Part shown: positions 25,752-48,622 of the stretch, one piece after another
Numbering within the stretch: the first letter of the stretch is position 1
How the letters are laid out: every line of letters starts with the position of its first letter
NCBI GenBank assembly: GCA_020137815.1
Contig: CM035358.1
Location: 3,038,001-3,102,000, forward strand
Direction of reading: 5' to 3'
Length of the DNA stretch: 64,000 nucleotides
From: Hormiphora californensis
Taxonomy: Eukaryota; Animalia; Ctenophora
Position numbers and translations under genes: made by a program
The notes under the pieces: model-generated
Told to the model about the DNA's origin: nothing
Database searches by the model: none
What the model saw: the letters and a program-made list of their open reading frames with translations, nothing else

Positions 25752-28700
25752 ATGAGAACACAAACTGGTGCATTCCTAAGAGCTATTATAATGGGGCCAC
25801 CAGGGTCAGGAAAAGGGACTGTTAGCTCTCGGATCGTGGACAAATTTAGTTTTCACCATCTCAGCAGCGGCGATCTCCTCCGACATCATATCAGGTAGAC
25901 ACCAGGAACCGACCGAATCATGAAATACTGGTCCCTGATTGGCTGATTACCAGTCACGTGACCTAAATAACGAGTTCTGATTGGTTGTTTACTTGTTTCG
26001 GTCGGTTCCTGTCAGGTAGACACATTGACTAAAACTTTCAACAACAATTAAATTTTTGGAACTTCGTCCCAGTTTTTGACTTCGTCGCCGTTTGGTTTTT
26101 TATGTATTCCATTCTTAGGAGTGACACCCAGCTTGGCAGAGAAGCCAAAGAATTCATAACGAAAGGCTTGCTTGTACCAGATACACTTGTAACAAAACTC
26201 ATCCTGTCGGAACTGTCTACCGTGGATCAGAAACGACAGTTGCTAGATGGTAAGTTATTTGATTTATATCCTGATCATATTGGAATGATTTATTGATTCG
26301 GGGCCTGGCAAGGCCCCCCGACCCGAATATAACCCAAACTCAACCCATCCCCCCTAAAACATCCCCCCTAAAACTAAAACAACGGGGCCGAGCCGACAGG
26401 CCCTTAATACCAGATGAAAAAAAACCATTCGGGGCCTGGCAAGGCCCCCCGACCCGAATATAACCCAAACTCAACCCATCCCCACTAAAACATCCCCCCT
26501 AAAACTAAAACAACGGGGCCGAGCCGACAGGCCCTTAATACCAGATGAAAAAAAAACCATAACCATAACCATAACCATAACCATTCGGGGCCTGGTAAGG
26601 CCCCCCGACCCGAATATAACCCAAACTCAACCCATCCCCCCTAAAACATCCCCCCTAAAACTAAAACAACGGGGCCGAGCCGACAGGCCCTTAATACCAG
26701 ATGAAAAAAAAACCATAAACCATTCGGGGCCTGGCAAGGCCCCCCGACCCGAATATAACCCAAACTCAACCCATCCCCCCTAAAACATCCTCCCTAACAC
26801 TAAAACAACGGGGCCGAGCCGACAGGCCCTTAATACCAGATGAAAAAAAAACCATAACCATAAACCATAAAACCATAACCATAGATATTTTTAGAGTGAA
26901 AGTTTTGAAGCCCCCTGAAGTAGTAGAGAGGTGTTCTATGGCTCGTTGGAAAGGTCTCGAGGTCCCGCGACGTATAGGGGGTGCGGCGATGGCCGTACCC
27001 AAACCCATAAGGGGTAGGACGCGAAAAACAGTCAAAATAAGGGGTATGCAGATCTCGGCAATTAGAAGGAGTAGACAGGTGTTCTAGGGTGCGTTAGAAA
27101 GCTCTCGAGGTGCTGAAGTAATTGGAATGTAATTGGAAGTAATTACATGTAATTAAAATGTAATTAGATGTAATTAAAGGGTAATTACATGTAATTAAAA
27201 GGTCTAAATGACCCCAAATGATAATTTAAATATATTTTGACATATTTTGAGGCCCTGAGACCAACGGGTGGCCAAATTTAATCTGGTTTCGGGTCGGCTG
27301 ACGTAAAAACTCCGCGTTTTGGTCGAGTAACCATAACCATAAACCATAAAACCATAGATATTTTTAGAGTGAAAGTTTTGAAGCCCCCTGAAGTAGTAGA
27401 GAGGTGTTCTATGGCTCGTTGGAAAGGTCTCGAGGTCCCGCGACGTATAGGGGGTGTGGCGATGGGTGTGCCCAAACCTATAAGGGGTAGGACGCGAAAA
27501 ACAGTCAAAATAAGGGGTATACAGAACTCGGCAATTAGAAGGAGTATAAAGGTGTTCTAGGGTGCGTTCGAAAGCTCTCGAGGTGCTGAAGTAATTGGAA
27601 TATAATTGGAAGTAATTACATGTAATTAAAATGTAATTACATGTAATTAAAGGGTAATTACATGTAATTAAAAGGTCTAAATGACCCCAAATGACAATTC
27701 AGACATATTTTGACATATTTGGAGGCCCTGAGACCAGCGGGTGGCAAAATTTAATCCGGTTTCGGGTCGGCTGACGTAAAAACTCCGCGTTTTGGTCGAG
27801 GTAAAACCATAAAACCATAAAACCATAACCATAGATATTTTTAGAGTGAAAGTTTTAAAGCCCCCTGAAGTAGTAGAGAGGTGTTCTATGGCTCGTTGGA
27901 AAGGTCTCGAGGTCCCGCGACGTATAGGGGGTGTGGCGATGGCCATACCCAAACCTATAAGGGGTAGGACGCGAAAAACAGTCAAAATAAGGGGTATACA
28001 GAACTCGGCAATTAGAAGGAGTAGAAAGGTGTTCTAGGGTGCGTTCGAAAGCTCTCGAGGTGCTGAAGTAATTGGAATGTAATTGGAAGTAATTACATGC
28101 AATTAAAATGTAATTACATGTAATTAAAGGGTAATTACATGTAATTAAAAGGTCTAAATGACCCCAAATGACAATTTTGACATATTTTGACATATTGGAG
28201 GCCCTGAGACCAGCGGGTGGCCAAATTTAATCAGGTTTCGGGTCGGCTGACGTAAAAACTCCGCGTTTTGGTCGAGTAAACCATAAAACCATAACCATAG
28301 ATATTTTTAGAGTGAAAGTTTTGAAGCCCCCCTGAAGTAGTAGAGAGGTGTTCTATGGCTCGTTGGAAAGGTCTCGAGGTCCCGCGACGTATAGGGGGTG
28401 TGGCGATGGCCATACCCAAACCTATAAGGGGTAGGACGCGAAAAACAGTCAAAATAAGGGGTATACAGAACTCGGCAATTAGAAGGATTAGAAAGGTGTT
28501 CTAGGGTGCGTTCGAAAGCTCTCGAGGTGCTGAAGTAATTGGAATGTAATTGGAAGTAATTACATGCAATTAAAATGTAATTACATGTAATTAAAGGGTA
28601 ATTACATGTAATTAAAAGGTCTAAATGACCCCAAATGACAATTTTGACATATTTTGACATATTGGAGGCCCTGAGACCAGCGGGTGGCCAAATTTAATCA

Positions 28701-45800: not shown

Positions 45801-48622
45801 ATCTGCTCGAGAGAAGTCAAGGGCTCGGAACTCTAGGGCAGCTGGAGGGCTTTGGTGGCAGGTGTAGTAAGGGGTGGGGAGGTAAGTGTAATGTCTGTTA
45901 GACGGTGGTCTGACATTTTGGTGTGGACACCTGGCCACTCAGAGAGGATGGTTAGTGAGGAGTACATCAAGGATATTACTTCCCCTGTTTGGGTGAGGAT
46001 GACTTGGTTGGCAAAGAAATCAGCCATGGGCGTGAATAAGGGACAAGAGTCCGAACCTTTTCCTCTCTCCGAGTTGAAACTCCAGTCAATATCCGGGAAG
46101 TTTAGACCACCACCGTCCACCAATAAACAGAGAGTAGTCATCGTCTACATCACTTAGGCACGATCTCAGTAAGGCAATGAGTTTGGAGAATTCAGACGCC
46201 GATGAATCAGGGGGCGGTGGACAGATGCAACTAACCATTAGGCGTGGTCAAGTTTACAGACAACTGGCATACTGAGTTATCGAAGGCTAGGGAAGATGAA
46301 TCGGGGGGATCAGTTCTCGAGTATAGAGCGACGCATCAGAAATGTATGATTCAGCCAGGTTTCAGATAGGTAGAAAAAGAAGGGGGTGATTCATGGAAGT
46401 CTCATCTTCTAAACATGTCTGCAGTGTCGGGACCTTCCATCTGGAAACACTGTGGGCGGATGGGTTGATCCCCCGTGCATTTAGTAGAAGTAGGGATGAG
46501 TATGGTTGAGGTACACGTGGGGTGCTTGTGGGGTCCATGAGTAGGAGTAGGGGTGTACTGTGTAGGGCAGGTAGGGTTGGGGCTACCCCATCGAATGATG
46601 TGTCGTATGGACTGGAGGAGCGGGCGGTGTATCTGTTGGGTGATGATCAGAGGCCGATGTAGCAGATCTAGGGGGTCTGGGAGGGAACGAATGCACTTGG
46701 AGCCTGGGGTGGGACAGGTGCAGCAGGGACATGGGGTGCAGAAGGTGTTTGAGTGGGAGTAGGAGCTCAGAAGTGATGGTGGTTGTGTTGAATGGAACCA
46801 GGTAGTATGGGCTCAATCCTCGTCTTCTGTTACATCATCTTCTGAAACATCATCTCCTGAATCTGAGGACTCCTCAGCCTCCATAATCCCACACTCCTTA
46901 AGGAAGGTGTCCAGGATGTTTAGTGGACACTCTTCCAAGAATGCGGGCCGCAGATAATACTCCCCGAAGAGGGAATGTCGTGTCTGCGCCAGTGCGGGGC
47001 ACTGGCACAAAACGTGCAAGTTGTCCTCCTCTTCGAGATCGCAATATCGGCAGTTTGAGTCTTCAGAAAGGTGTATCTTTTTAAGGAAGCTTTTCAGGTT
47101 TCCCCTATTTCCGATGAAGTTTATACACCTCTGAAGACTCTTACTGCTTAATGCGTGGATGGCCGATTGTGGAGTGTTTCTCGAGAGGATGTCAGCACTG
47201 TCGATTAGTCTGTTGGAAGTGACTAATTTGCTTCTCATCCTGTCGAGAGCCTCCGTTGATGTTTTTATGGCCTCAGCTTTAGCACCCATCTTGATTCTCG
47301 ATAATGCTATGCGATGATCCGGGAGTTCCGGGGTCTCCAACCTGGCTGCTGACTTTGCCAGGCAGTCGGCCCGCTCATTGCCCTCTATCCCCGTGTGAGC
47401 TGCACAGTAAGTCAGAGTTACTGCAGAGCTCAGTTTTCCCAGATCATTCAGGGTTTTGGCCAGTTTCCAGACCGAGTGTATCTTATAGGGTTTAGACACT
47501 AGTTGTTTAAGTACCGTTTGGCTGTCAGTGTAAAACATGATACTCTTGGCCGAATCATGATAACGTCCTCTGCCGCCCCTGTGATTACGACTAGCTGAAA
47601 AGAGCCGTCATGATTTAGTTCGAATATTTCCACGCAATCTCCAATTCAATCCCTCTATCGCTAGTTTGAACTGTTGCGCGCAGTTAAAAGCAAAGTTGTG
47701 CGCATCGGTTTCACGACCGTTCATGTCACGTGACCTGTAGATTAGAGTACACATTTTCACTTGACCCGGAATCGTCTGCAGTTTTCACATCGAAGTGTTG
47801 ATTACATCTCGATTGTACACAGTCTACTCACACTACTTTTACAGGACATATGAGTATGTACAGAGGGAGCTACCCAAGATTCCACTTGATATACCCGTTA
47901 TCATAATGGTAGGTTGGTTAGTTTGAACATGATTATTGTGGTATCTCTCACCACCATATTGTAACATAATATTAGTTAACTTCTACCATCTCACACTTAA
48001 GCTTAACACTGAAGAGGACATTCTTATGTCGAAACGTTTGTTATAATAGCTATTTGATTTTGAACAACTGAATCAACGTCTTTTTTCCTGAATGCCTGAT
48101 TACACGCTAACATACGCGAGACCAGTTCGGAGGTCCAACAGTGGCCCCCACTCCAAGCACTACTATACCGCGGTCGGTGTCACCAGCCCGTCAGGGTTGG
48201 GACAGCGTTCTCTCACACTACCACTTTGTGTTTATATCTTCTGAATCTCCGTTTAACATCACCTACTATAACATGTCTACTGACTCTCCAGCTGCTACAT
48301 ATCTCACACCCTCCCAGGCGAGTCACAGAGATCTAGAGGAGAAGAGATCAGTGTTAACTGAAGAGGTCCAGCAGTTTATCCGAGAACTAAACAGGTACAT
48401 TGCCTTGTTCAACCCTCTCTTACCACACCCCGAAATAGAGGAGGCTTAGAACATAACACCCAAGTCTCAATTTGAAATATATCTTTATACAAATACATTA
48501 CAACAACACATTTCAGACCAGCAGAGGCTGCTGAAGTTTACTACATGGAAGCCTCAATGAGAGACGGATTCGGACTAAAGTACCTCTACCGATTCTTTAA
48601 CGTCCCCTTCCTAGAGTTGCAG
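42899..48622 (+). CDS. RABL6: Rab-like protein 6, N-terminal GTPase portion. Exons 42899-43025, 43214-43348, 43699-43793, 43936-44018, 47845-47908, 48318-48394, 48517-48622; gene continues downstream
   Basis: [71 protein letters not shown]. The last exon ends in a donor with no stop codon. Confidence 0.93.
44049..44162. repeat. 114-bp direct repeat; second copy at 47583-47696
   Basis: GATTACGACTAGCTGAAAAGAGCCG...GCAAAGT at both ends of the LINE-containing block in RABL6 intron 4. Confidence 0.85.
44660..46450 (-). mobile_element. Degenerate CR1-like non-LTR retrotransposon fragment (endonuclease remnant and RT C-terminus)
   Basis: LNFPDIDW and SDH endonuclease motifs; [22 protein letters not shown]-terminal motif. 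Frameshifted, RT core missing. Confidence 0.7.
46813..47540 (-). mobile_element. 3' part of an RNase H-containing LINE (R1/LOA/I-like)
   Basis: RNase H motifs FYTDSQ and [17 protein letters not shown]-terminal zinc knuckle CRYC-x7-H-x4-C. Confidence 0.8.
48004..48043 (+). ncRNA. Minimal type I hammerhead ribozyme (Penelope-like)
   Basis: TAACA-CTGAAGA-G-GACAT-TCTT-ATGTC-GAAAC-GTT-TGTTA: conserved core, stems I and II, palindromic stem III (AAACGTTT). Confidence 0.7.

What the first reader, a model, noticed from the sequence alone, without database searches (positions are those of the whole stretch)
25752..48622. Candidate five-gene eukaryotic operon (AK3-KIN17-anamorsin-UBOX5-RABL6) resolved by trans-splicing
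Seen: five unrelated housekeeping genes are co-oriented with stop-to-start gaps of 195, 145, 199 and 177 bp. Each ATG is preceded within ~6-20 nt by a pyrimidine tract and AG (TTTAG 25743, CCTATCAG 32481, CCCTTTTTATAG 33836, CTCTCTCAG 34777, CTCCCTAG 42878). The gaps are T/pyrimidine-rich and lack AATAAA. Known: this layout typifies spliced-leader operons in nematodes and tunicates, and spliced-leader trans-splicing occurs in ctenophores. Inferred: one promoter upstream of AK3 drives a polycistronic pre-mRNA.
Basis: partly seen in the sequence, partly recalled or inferred. Interest (0 to 1): 0.85.

Follow-up and report, generated by a model that had tools for sequence, protein, structure and literature searches.

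The report
Conserved comb-jelly gene operon candidate
Five unrelated housekeeping genes of a comb jelly lie head to tail only 145-199 bases apart, and at least three of them are also linked in distantly related comb jellies; they are likely read as one long RNA that a spliced leader cuts into single messages, which would be the first operon described in this animal group, but no RNA proof was obtained.

Summary
Observation confirmed: five co-oriented genes (AK3-type adenylate kinase, KIN17, anamorsin, a U-box gene, RABL6) with gaps of exactly 195, 145, 199 and 177 bp. Each ATG has a splice-acceptor-like AG shortly upstream (joint p about 1e-4 against non-coding ATGs), and the four gaps hold no strong donor. 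[quoted passage not shown] A 280-bp inverted-repeat element lies just upstream of AK3 and of the divergent neighbour but in no gap. Not shown: SL on these mRNAs, a polycistronic precursor, or absence of internal promoters; the RNA contigs covered no 5' end or gap. AK3 linkage in relatives is untested. Best reading: SL-resolved operon (0.62). I found no ctenophore operon in seven literature searches, but three key papers were unreadable. The scan noted similar layouts before in other animals, not in ctenophores.

The parts
25383..25660 (+). About 280-bp element with terminal inverted repeats (MITE-like), ending 63-83 nt before the AK3 acceptors; candidate promoter region of the unit (inferred)
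   Evidence: 87-88% identical to the inverted copy at 22274-22560; absent from the four gaps and from the rest of the window apart from related 235-bp units
22274..22560 (-). Mirror copy of the same element, ending 101 nt before the acceptor of the divergent prenyltransferase-beta gene (ATG 22170, minus strand)
   Evidence: Pfam Prenyltrans on two exons
25722..25743 (+). Two candidate trans-splice acceptors of AK3 (AG ending 25723, score 6.1; AG ending 25743, score 2.9)
25752..32297 (+). Adenylate kinase (AK3-type), 5 exons: 25752-25894, 26119-26249, 31709-31815, 31930-32046, 32139-32297; 218 aa; intron 2 is a 5.4-kb tandem-repeat array
   Evidence: open GT-AG model, Pfam ADK and ADK_lid, intron 31816-31929 spliced in RNA contigs of 2 of 4 runs, repeats
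32298..32492 (+). Gap 1 (195 bp); best of 9 AGs ends at 32481 (score 3.0); best donor 1.3
32493..33698 (+). KIN17, single exon, 401 aa
   Evidence: 99% to P. bachei
33699..33843 (+). Gap 2 (145 bp); best of 5 AGs ends at 33836 (score 7.6); best donor 2.1
33844..34584 (+). Anamorsin (CIAPIN1), single exon, 246 aa
   Evidence: 90% to P. bachei; RNA contigs cover most of the CDS
34585..34783 (+). Gap 3 (199 bp); three good AGs ending 34708, 34755, 34777 (8.4, 9.2, 9.3); best donor 2.6
34784..42721 (+). U-box gene (UBOX5-like, name recalled) with a tandem duplication of exons 2-6 (34933-37712 repeated at 37751-40534)
   Evidence: Pfam U-box, models, duplication 99.7%
42722..42898 (+). Gap 4 (177 bp); AGs ending 42856 (7.8, followed by a two-codon upstream ATG-stop) and 42878 (6.2); ATTAAA at 42789; best donor 4.2 at 42740
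42899..48622 (+). RABL6, first seven coding exons (229 aa); the rest of the gene was not found in the window and likely lies beyond 64000
   Evidence: open model, tblastn with Mnemiopsis and Bolinopsis RABL6, Pfam

Best explanation
The five genes lie head to tail with donor-less splice acceptors in front of their start codons, and they likely form an operon that is transcribed from one promoter upstream of AK3 and cut into single-gene mRNAs by spliced-leader trans-splicing. Shown: layout, acceptors, lack of strong donors, ctenophore origin, linkage of KIN17-anamorsin and of anamorsin-(one gene)-RABL6 in other ctenophores. Inferred: (1) Pol II starts in or near the inverted-repeat element at 25383-25660 and runs through all five genes (over 38 kb if RABL6 ends beyond the window). 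(2) In each gap the upstream mRNA is cleaved and polyadenylated at a signal other than AATAAA, or is released by the trans-splicing step itself. (3) The ctenophore SL (35-48 nt in Hormiphora) is joined to the AG 6-20 nt before each ATG, which caps the downstream mRNA and removes the 2-4 ATGs in each gap. (4) Because the downstream genes have no promoter of their own, breaks between them are selected against, which keeps their order in a phylum that otherwise shuffles genes. Odds by step: SL addition at these AGs about 0.85; co-transcription of the KIN17-RABL6 core about 0.65; all five from one promoter only, about 0.5.
For: Gaps of 145-199 bp must hold a 3' UTR and the acceptor region as well as any promoter. 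Acceptor scores are above background, p=7.5e-5; the best donors in the gaps score 1.3, 2.1, 2.6 and 4.2 against a median of 7.6 for 25 true donors. Closest proteins are P. bachei. SL is reported on at least 56% of Iso-Seq reads in the same family (PMC8527503, passages), and P. pileus is listed as trans-splicing (PMC4824033, passage). Synteny: 11 of 12 ctenophore-like KIN17 records on contigs of 10 kb or more share their exact contig length with an anamorsin record, in at least four lineages, down to 67% KIN17 and 48% anamorsin identity; two short shared lengths (4069, 4716 bp) would bound the pair to a few kb. Mnemiopsis anamorsin is G016230/KAL5250431 and RABL6 is G016232/KAL5250433-4 on one scaffold; Bolinopsis KIN17, anamorsin and RABL6 are XP_063686873, 881 and 864-868 on one chromosome. 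The largest colinear block reported between Hormiphora and Mnemiopsis has four genes, about 180 My apart (PMC8527503; PMC12221973). The inverted-repeat element flanks only the two outward-facing first genes.
Against: No direct RNA evidence either way. An AG within 30 nt of the ATG is also found at three genes outside the cluster (scores 2.1, 0.9, 4.4), so trans-splicing does not imply an operon. The KIN17 acceptor (3.0) is reached by 18% of background ATGs. Four of 25 true donors score 4.1 or less, so weak donors in the gaps, especially 42740 (4.2), are not excluded. Gaps 1 and 4 have CpG o/e of 1.24 and 1.01 on few sites, like the upstream regions, and gap 4 has ATTAAA, so an internal promoter before RABL6 is possible. 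Synteny rests on contig lengths and accession numbers, not on DNA: strand, spacing and the identity of Mnemiopsis G016231 are unseen; one shared length (1525 bp) is too short to hold both genes and so is chance; AK3 linkage was not tested; no NCBI Mnemiopsis KIN17 model turned up. Tight spacing with overlapping 3' ends and promoters would also conserve order.
Confidence: 0.62

Rival explanations
1. Tightly packed monocistronic genes: each has its own compact promoter in the gap or in the 3' end of the upstream gene, makes a short outron and is SL trans-spliced on its own (or a hybrid, with an internal promoter before KIN17 or RABL6).
For: SL is on most mRNAs in Hormiphora whatever their position. 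Genes outside the cluster have an AG before the ATG too. ATTAAA and a near-1 CpG ratio in gap 4. Overlap of a 3' UTR with the next promoter would also preserve gene order (inference).
Against: Four gaps in a row under 200 bp leave little room after a 3' UTR. Gaps are AT-rich (GC 0.29-0.38) unlike the regions upstream of AK3 and of the divergent gene (0.43-0.44), and they lack the shared element. However, the upstream region of the antisense gene at 56780 is AT-rich too (0.31).
Confidence: 0.28
2. The AGs end ordinary cis-spliced 5'-UTR introns of independent genes whose first exons lie in the gap or inside the upstream gene.
For: Gap composition resembles short introns; a 139-nt intron 42740-42878 is possible with a 4.2-bit donor; introns of 74-144 nt exist in these genes.
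Against: No donor above 4.2 in any gap; the 42740 donor lies only 19 nt behind the U-box stop codon; the lineage trans-splices most mRNAs.
Confidence: 0.06
3. A stable polycistronic mRNA that is not resolved, with downstream frames read by leaky scanning or internal entry, as in green algae (PMC7896298, search listing only).
For: Short gaps; KIN17 and anamorsin are intronless neighbours; they occur together on 4069- and 4716-bp contigs whose kind (RNA or DNA) is not given.
Against: Acceptors before each ATG would be unnecessary; each gap has 2-4 ATGs; anamorsin relatives often sit alone on contigs of 785-927 bp, the size of a single-gene mRNA (RNA origin inferred).
Confidence: 0.04

Closest known systems
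Hydra RFC140-flp operon (PMC3273482; passages read)
   Same: Non-bilaterian animal with SL; co-oriented genes under 420 bp apart; T-rich stretch, pyrimidine tract and AG in the gap.
   Different: Two genes, experimentally shown to lack an internal promoter; has a putative poly(A) signal. Here five genes, another phylum, no experiment, but linkage conserved across lineages.
Chaetognath (Paraspadella gotoi) operons (PMC12460157; passages)
   Same: Defined as genes under 250 bp apart resolved by SL; housekeeping-biased; up to nine genes; no operon-specific leader. All four gaps here pass that distance rule.
   Different: There SL reads validate the operons genome-wide; here SL is not shown on these genes.
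Tunicate operons of Ciona and Oikopleura (PMC7986045; passages)
   Same: One leader serves both operonic and monocistronic genes, so operons are told apart by distance.
   Different: Intercistronic distances are about 1 bp (Ciona) and 30-60 bp (Oikopleura) between mapped ends; here only stop-to-start distances are known.
C. elegans SL2-type operons (PMC7986045, passages; AAUAAA feature recalled)
   Same: About 100 bp between genes; U-rich intercistronic sequence; housekeeping genes.
   Different: Uses a specialised SL2 and a canonical poly(A) signal; no AATAAA in the gaps here, and no specialised leader is reported in the ctenophore paper read.
Ctenophore SL trans-splicing (PMC8527503, passages; Derelle 2010 not readable)
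   Same: Supplies the leader that would resolve this unit.
   Different: The Hormiphora paper has 0 occurrences of 'operon' and does not describe polycistronic units.

Membership tests
SL-resolved eukaryotic operon | Co-oriented, closely spaced genes | tested here: met
   Gaps 195/145/199/177 bp, all + strand
SL-resolved eukaryotic operon | Organism has SL trans-splicing | tested here: met
   Pleurobrachia-like by protein identity; SL published for P. pileus and Hormiphora. No SL gene in this window
SL-resolved eukaryotic operon | Unpaired 3' splice acceptor before each downstream start codon | tested here: met
   Scores 3.0, 7.6, 9.3, 6.2; best donors 1.3-4.2; weakest for KIN17
SL-resolved eukaryotic operon | Leader present on the downstream mRNAs at those AGs | tested here: inconclusive
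   Contigs of 4 runs do not reach any 5' end
SL-resolved eukaryotic operon | Polycistronic precursor spanning the gaps | tested here: inconclusive
   No contig bridges a gap; low-depth contigs cannot show absence
SL-resolved eukaryotic operon | Single upstream promoter, none in the gaps | not testable with these tools
   Only indirect: shared element upstream of AK3 and the divergent gene, absent from the gaps
SL-resolved eukaryotic operon | Conserved gene order (typical, not defining) | tested here: met
   KIN17-anamorsin by shared contig lengths; anamorsin-X-RABL6 by locus tags; AK3 and the U-box gene not shown
Nematode SL2-type operon | AAUAAA poly(A) signal about 100 nt upstream of the acceptor (recalled) | tested here: not met
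   0 of 4 gaps have AATAAA; 1 of 4 has ATTAAA
Nematode SL2-type operon | Specialised leader for downstream genes | not testable with these tools
   No leader-bearing reads available
Ciona-type zero-gap operon | Poly(A) site abuts the downstream acceptor | not testable with these tools
   3' ends unmapped; anamorsin RNA contigs stop at 34585-34588, just behind the stop codon, at low depth

The most novel reading that the evidence does not exclude
[quoted passage not shown] This five-gene unit dates from their common ancestor, and operons are what remains of gene order between ctenophore orders, so surviving microsynteny would be a map of their operons; in Pleurobrachia the unit is driven by a promoter built from a co-opted miniature transposon shared with the divergent gene.
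Probability: 0.35. Interest if true: 0.75.

Novelty: new member of a known kind. Interest (0 to 1): 0.52.

Why it matters
SL trans-splicing is known in comb jellies, but I found no report of operons in them (paper searches; also 90). If confirmed, operons extend to the earliest-branching animal lineage, which bears on whether trans-splicing repeatedly gives rise to operons. It would offer a reason for the few gene blocks that survive the scrambling of ctenophore genomes. It would also give a short spacer for two-gene transgenes in Mnemiopsis, as was done in Hydra. The test is cheap: Iso-Seq, ATAC and H3K4me3 data for Hormiphora and Mnemiopsis are described in the papers read, and the orthologous Mnemiopsis locus is named here (G016230-G016232). 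The mechanism itself is a known one.

Tried and rejected
No whole genome is held, so no genome-wide baseline for gap lengths, acceptors or the upstream element was possible. RNA: 4 runs listed, 3 with small shares. Laid on 31690-35110 they cover coding parts of AK3, KIN17 and anamorsin (long pieces differ at roughly 1-5 letters in 100) and confirm one AK3 intron, but have no cover over the three acceptors there; on 42045-44030 only a small repeat and one 34-nt piece were laid. Missing cover proves nothing. A metagenome scan with the anamorsin alignment gave 80 loci, none ctenophore-like by tblastn; scans of prokaryote genomes and viral contigs with KIN17 gave none. The search for U-box orthologues with one exon returned a single repeat-protein artefact; PDB matches of the U-box piece were weak UBE4-type hits. 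No SL-like motif beyond chance in the window (1 match with 3 mismatches, 0.47 expected); no Rfam hit. Five orthologue records with upstream in-frame extensions are all compatible with a YAG within 9 nt of the ATG, but 53% of random extensions are too (p about 0.04): weak. No k-mer of 8 is shared by three gaps. 'Lack of AATAAA' and 'T-richness' were rejected as diagnostic. The closeness of the Bolinopsis accession numbers was not used for order, as they do not follow the window's order. Derelle 2010 and the Pleurobrachia and Mnemiopsis draft-genome papers are not held; the Hormiphora supplements could not be read and may bear on novelty; the one supplement of PMC11797021 has no locus tags; the supplements of PMC12221973 were listed but not read.
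Full report
Verdict. The layout is real and is best read as a spliced-leader (SL) operon in a comb jelly (0.62). The evidence is sequence anatomy, lineage and conserved linkage. The defining RNA evidence could not be obtained.

1. Observation. All five motifs end where stated. The gaps are 195, 145, 199 and 177 bp. Open GT-AG models were built for the adenylate kinase (5 exons, 218 aa) and the first seven RABL6 exons; KIN17 and anamorsin are single exons. Pfam gives ADK and ADK_lid, KIN17 domains, CIAPIN1, U-box and Roc/Ras. 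The names AK3 and UBOX5 are recalled. One AK3 intron is confirmed by RNA contigs in 2 of 4 runs. RABL6 is incomplete: tblastn with Mnemiopsis and Bolinopsis RABL6 finds residues 1-230 only, so the finding's end at 48622 is an exon end, not the gene end.

2. Is it more than chance? I built position matrices from 26 acceptors and 25 donors of cis introns in this window. The best AG within 30 nt of the five ATGs scores 6.1, 3.0, 7.6, 9.3 and 6.2, reached by 7%, 18%, 3%, 1% and 7% of 1017 non-coding ATGs (exons, tandem arrays and microsatellite contexts masked); p=7.5e-5 for the mean. In gaps 1-3 the listed AG is the best in its gap (of 9, 5 and 10 AGs). In gap 4 it is second of 4; the best is followed at once by ATG-stop. 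The best donors in the gaps score 1.3, 2.1, 2.6 and 4.2 (true median 7.6, though 4 of 25 true donors score 4.1 or less). AATAAA is also absent behind the divergent gene, and gap 4 has ATTAAA. Gap T content overlaps that of short introns. Three genes outside the cluster also have an AG within 30 nt of the ATG, with weaker scores (2.1, 0.9, 4.4), as expected if most genes are trans-spliced.

3. Organism. The best hits are Pleurobrachia bachei proteins: KIN17 99%, anamorsin 90%, a RABL6 exon 100%. In Hormiphora (same family) a 35-48-nt leader was on 56% of Iso-Seq reads, given as a lower bound, and the paper never uses the word operon (PMC8527503, passages). P. pileus is listed as trans-splicing (PMC4824033, passage). 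No SL gene lies in this window.

4. Linkage in relatives. No relative's DNA could be fetched, so I used contig lengths and accession numbers from the protein searches. Of 12 ctenophore-like KIN17 records on contigs of 10 kb or more, 11 share their exact contig length with an anamorsin record (17428893, 204165, 73924, 394714, 396924, 3442877, 118305, 796610, 17427, 17312, 138526; the miss is 59726). Of 13 such anamorsin records, 11 match (misses 14606143, 33139). By identity these fall into at least four lineages besides the window's, the most distant at 67% (KIN17) and 48% (anamorsin). Two short shared lengths (4069, 4716 bp) would place the pair within a few kb; a third (1525 bp) is too short for both genes and shows that short lengths can agree by chance. 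RABL6 lies on three of the same long records. In Mnemiopsis anamorsin is G016230 (KAL5250431) and RABL6 is G016232 (KAL5250433-4), with one tag and one accession between; in Bolinopsis the three are XP_063686873, 881 and 864-868 on one chromosome. For scale, the largest colinear block reported between Hormiphora and Mnemiopsis has four genes, over about 180 million years (PMC12221973, passage). Limits: strand and spacing in relatives are unseen; G016231 is not identified (the U-box exon search gave only an artefact); AK3 was not tested; no NCBI Mnemiopsis KIN17 model appeared.

5. Upstream region. A 280-bp element with terminal inverted repeats ends 63-83 nt before the AK3 acceptors. An 87-88% identical copy, in mirror orientation, ends 101 nt before the acceptor of the divergent prenyltransferase-beta gene (ATG 22170). 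Four related 235-bp units lie between them. The element is in none of the gaps. This fits a promoter only at the head of the unit, but it rests on two copies and may reflect insertion preference. The gaps are AT-rich (GC 0.29-0.38) against 0.43-0.44 for these two upstream regions; CpG ratios do not separate them cleanly.

6. RNA. Three metatranscriptome runs hold coding parts of AK3, KIN17 and anamorsin, but no contig reaches a 5' end or bridges a gap. This is no evidence either way.

7. Mechanism. Inferred: one transcript starts near 25.4-25.7 kb. In each gap the upstream mRNA is given its 3' end and the leader is joined to the AG 6-20 nt before the next ATG, which caps the mRNA and removes the 2-4 ATGs in each gap. 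Promoter-less downstream genes cannot be separated, which explains the conserved order. Rivals: independent compact promoters with short outrons, or a hybrid (0.28); cis 5'-UTR introns (0.06); unresolved polycistronic mRNA (0.04).

8. Comparison. It works like the Hydra RFC140-flp operon (PMC3273482, passages), chaetognath operons (under-250-bp rule met; PMC12460157, passages) and tunicate operons (PMC7986045, passages). It is not an SL2-type nematode operon by the AATAAA test. Membership in 'SL-resolved operon' is unproven: three defining features met, two inconclusive, one untestable.

9. Novelty. Searches (listings only) and term look-ups in PMC8527503, PMC12221973, PMC11184263, PMC11797021, PMC6005172, PMC13498776 and PMC10282587 showed no ctenophore operon. 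Derelle 2010 and the two draft-genome papers were not held, and the Hormiphora supplements could not be read; any of them may mention candidates. Earlier notes of this scan describe similar clusters in other animals, none under 'ctenophore', 'Pleurobrachia' or 'Mnemiopsis'; they are unchecked and were not used as support. Class: new member of a known kind. Interest 0.52: expected in principle, apparently unreported in this phylum, and directly testable with existing data.

Noticed in passing
window 34933-37712 and 37751-40534: Tandem duplication (2786 bp, 99.7%) of exons 2-6 of the U-box gene with a 38-bp filler. The copies differ at 9 aligned positions, nearly all indels in homopolymers or microsatellites: an assembly artefact or a very recent duplication.
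   Followed up: partly
window 36339-36457 (and its copy): The strongest acceptor of U-box exon 3 leads to a stop within 24 nt in all three frames; an open reading exists with a downstream AAG acceptor (36356) or by skipping the exon. Unresolved.
   Followed up: partly
window 22274-22560, 24100-25042, 25383-25660: MITE-like element in mirror copies just upstream of two divergent genes, with four related 235-bp units between; candidate transposon-derived promoter family.
   Followed up: partly
window about 49870-56780, minus strand: An unidentified multi-exon gene with coiled-coil-like exons lies antisense downstream of RABL6 exon 7, probably nested in a RABL6 intron of over 15 kb; one of its introns is a 3.3-kb array of a 22-bp unit.
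   Followed up: partly
window 26296-31676: AK3 intron 2 is a 5.4-kb array of 131-156-bp and about 470-bp tandem units.
   Followed up: no
window 25900-26011, 34941-35052, 37759-37868, 49218-49335: A 110-bp element with inverted ends recurs in introns and is extremely abundant in the RNA contigs (summed depth in the thousands): a high-copy MITE-like family.
   Followed up: no
window about 44170-47580, minus strand: Fragmented non-LTR-retrotransposon-like insert (RNase H and zf-RVT) in RABL6 intron 4, flanked by a 119-bp direct repeat (44049-44167, 47583-47700).
   Followed up: partly
window 58754-61024: Reverse-transcriptase fragments interrupted by a 610-bp, 99.5% inverted repeat (59106-59714 / 59895-60504); a related element at 12322-13505.
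   Followed up: no
window 42856-42864: A second, stronger acceptor in gap 4 is followed by a two-codon upstream frame (ATG-stop); alternative leader addition could tune RABL6 translation (inference).
   Followed up: no
No NCBI Mnemiopsis KIN17 model of 220-702 aa appeared although neighbours G016230 and G016232 did; it may be unannotated or fused. Unexplained.
   Followed up: partly
window 18362-20608: Two arrays of a 10-bp palindrome-rich unit flank an inverted GC-rich segment inside the last intron of the prenyltransferase-beta gene.
   Followed up: no
window about 8130-8304, minus strand: Putative first exon of another gene (Ser/Arg/Pro-rich), with an AG 15 nt before its ATG, about 9.3 kb downstream of the prenyltransferase stop on the same strand: a co-oriented pair that is not tightly packed. 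Not identified.
   Followed up: no
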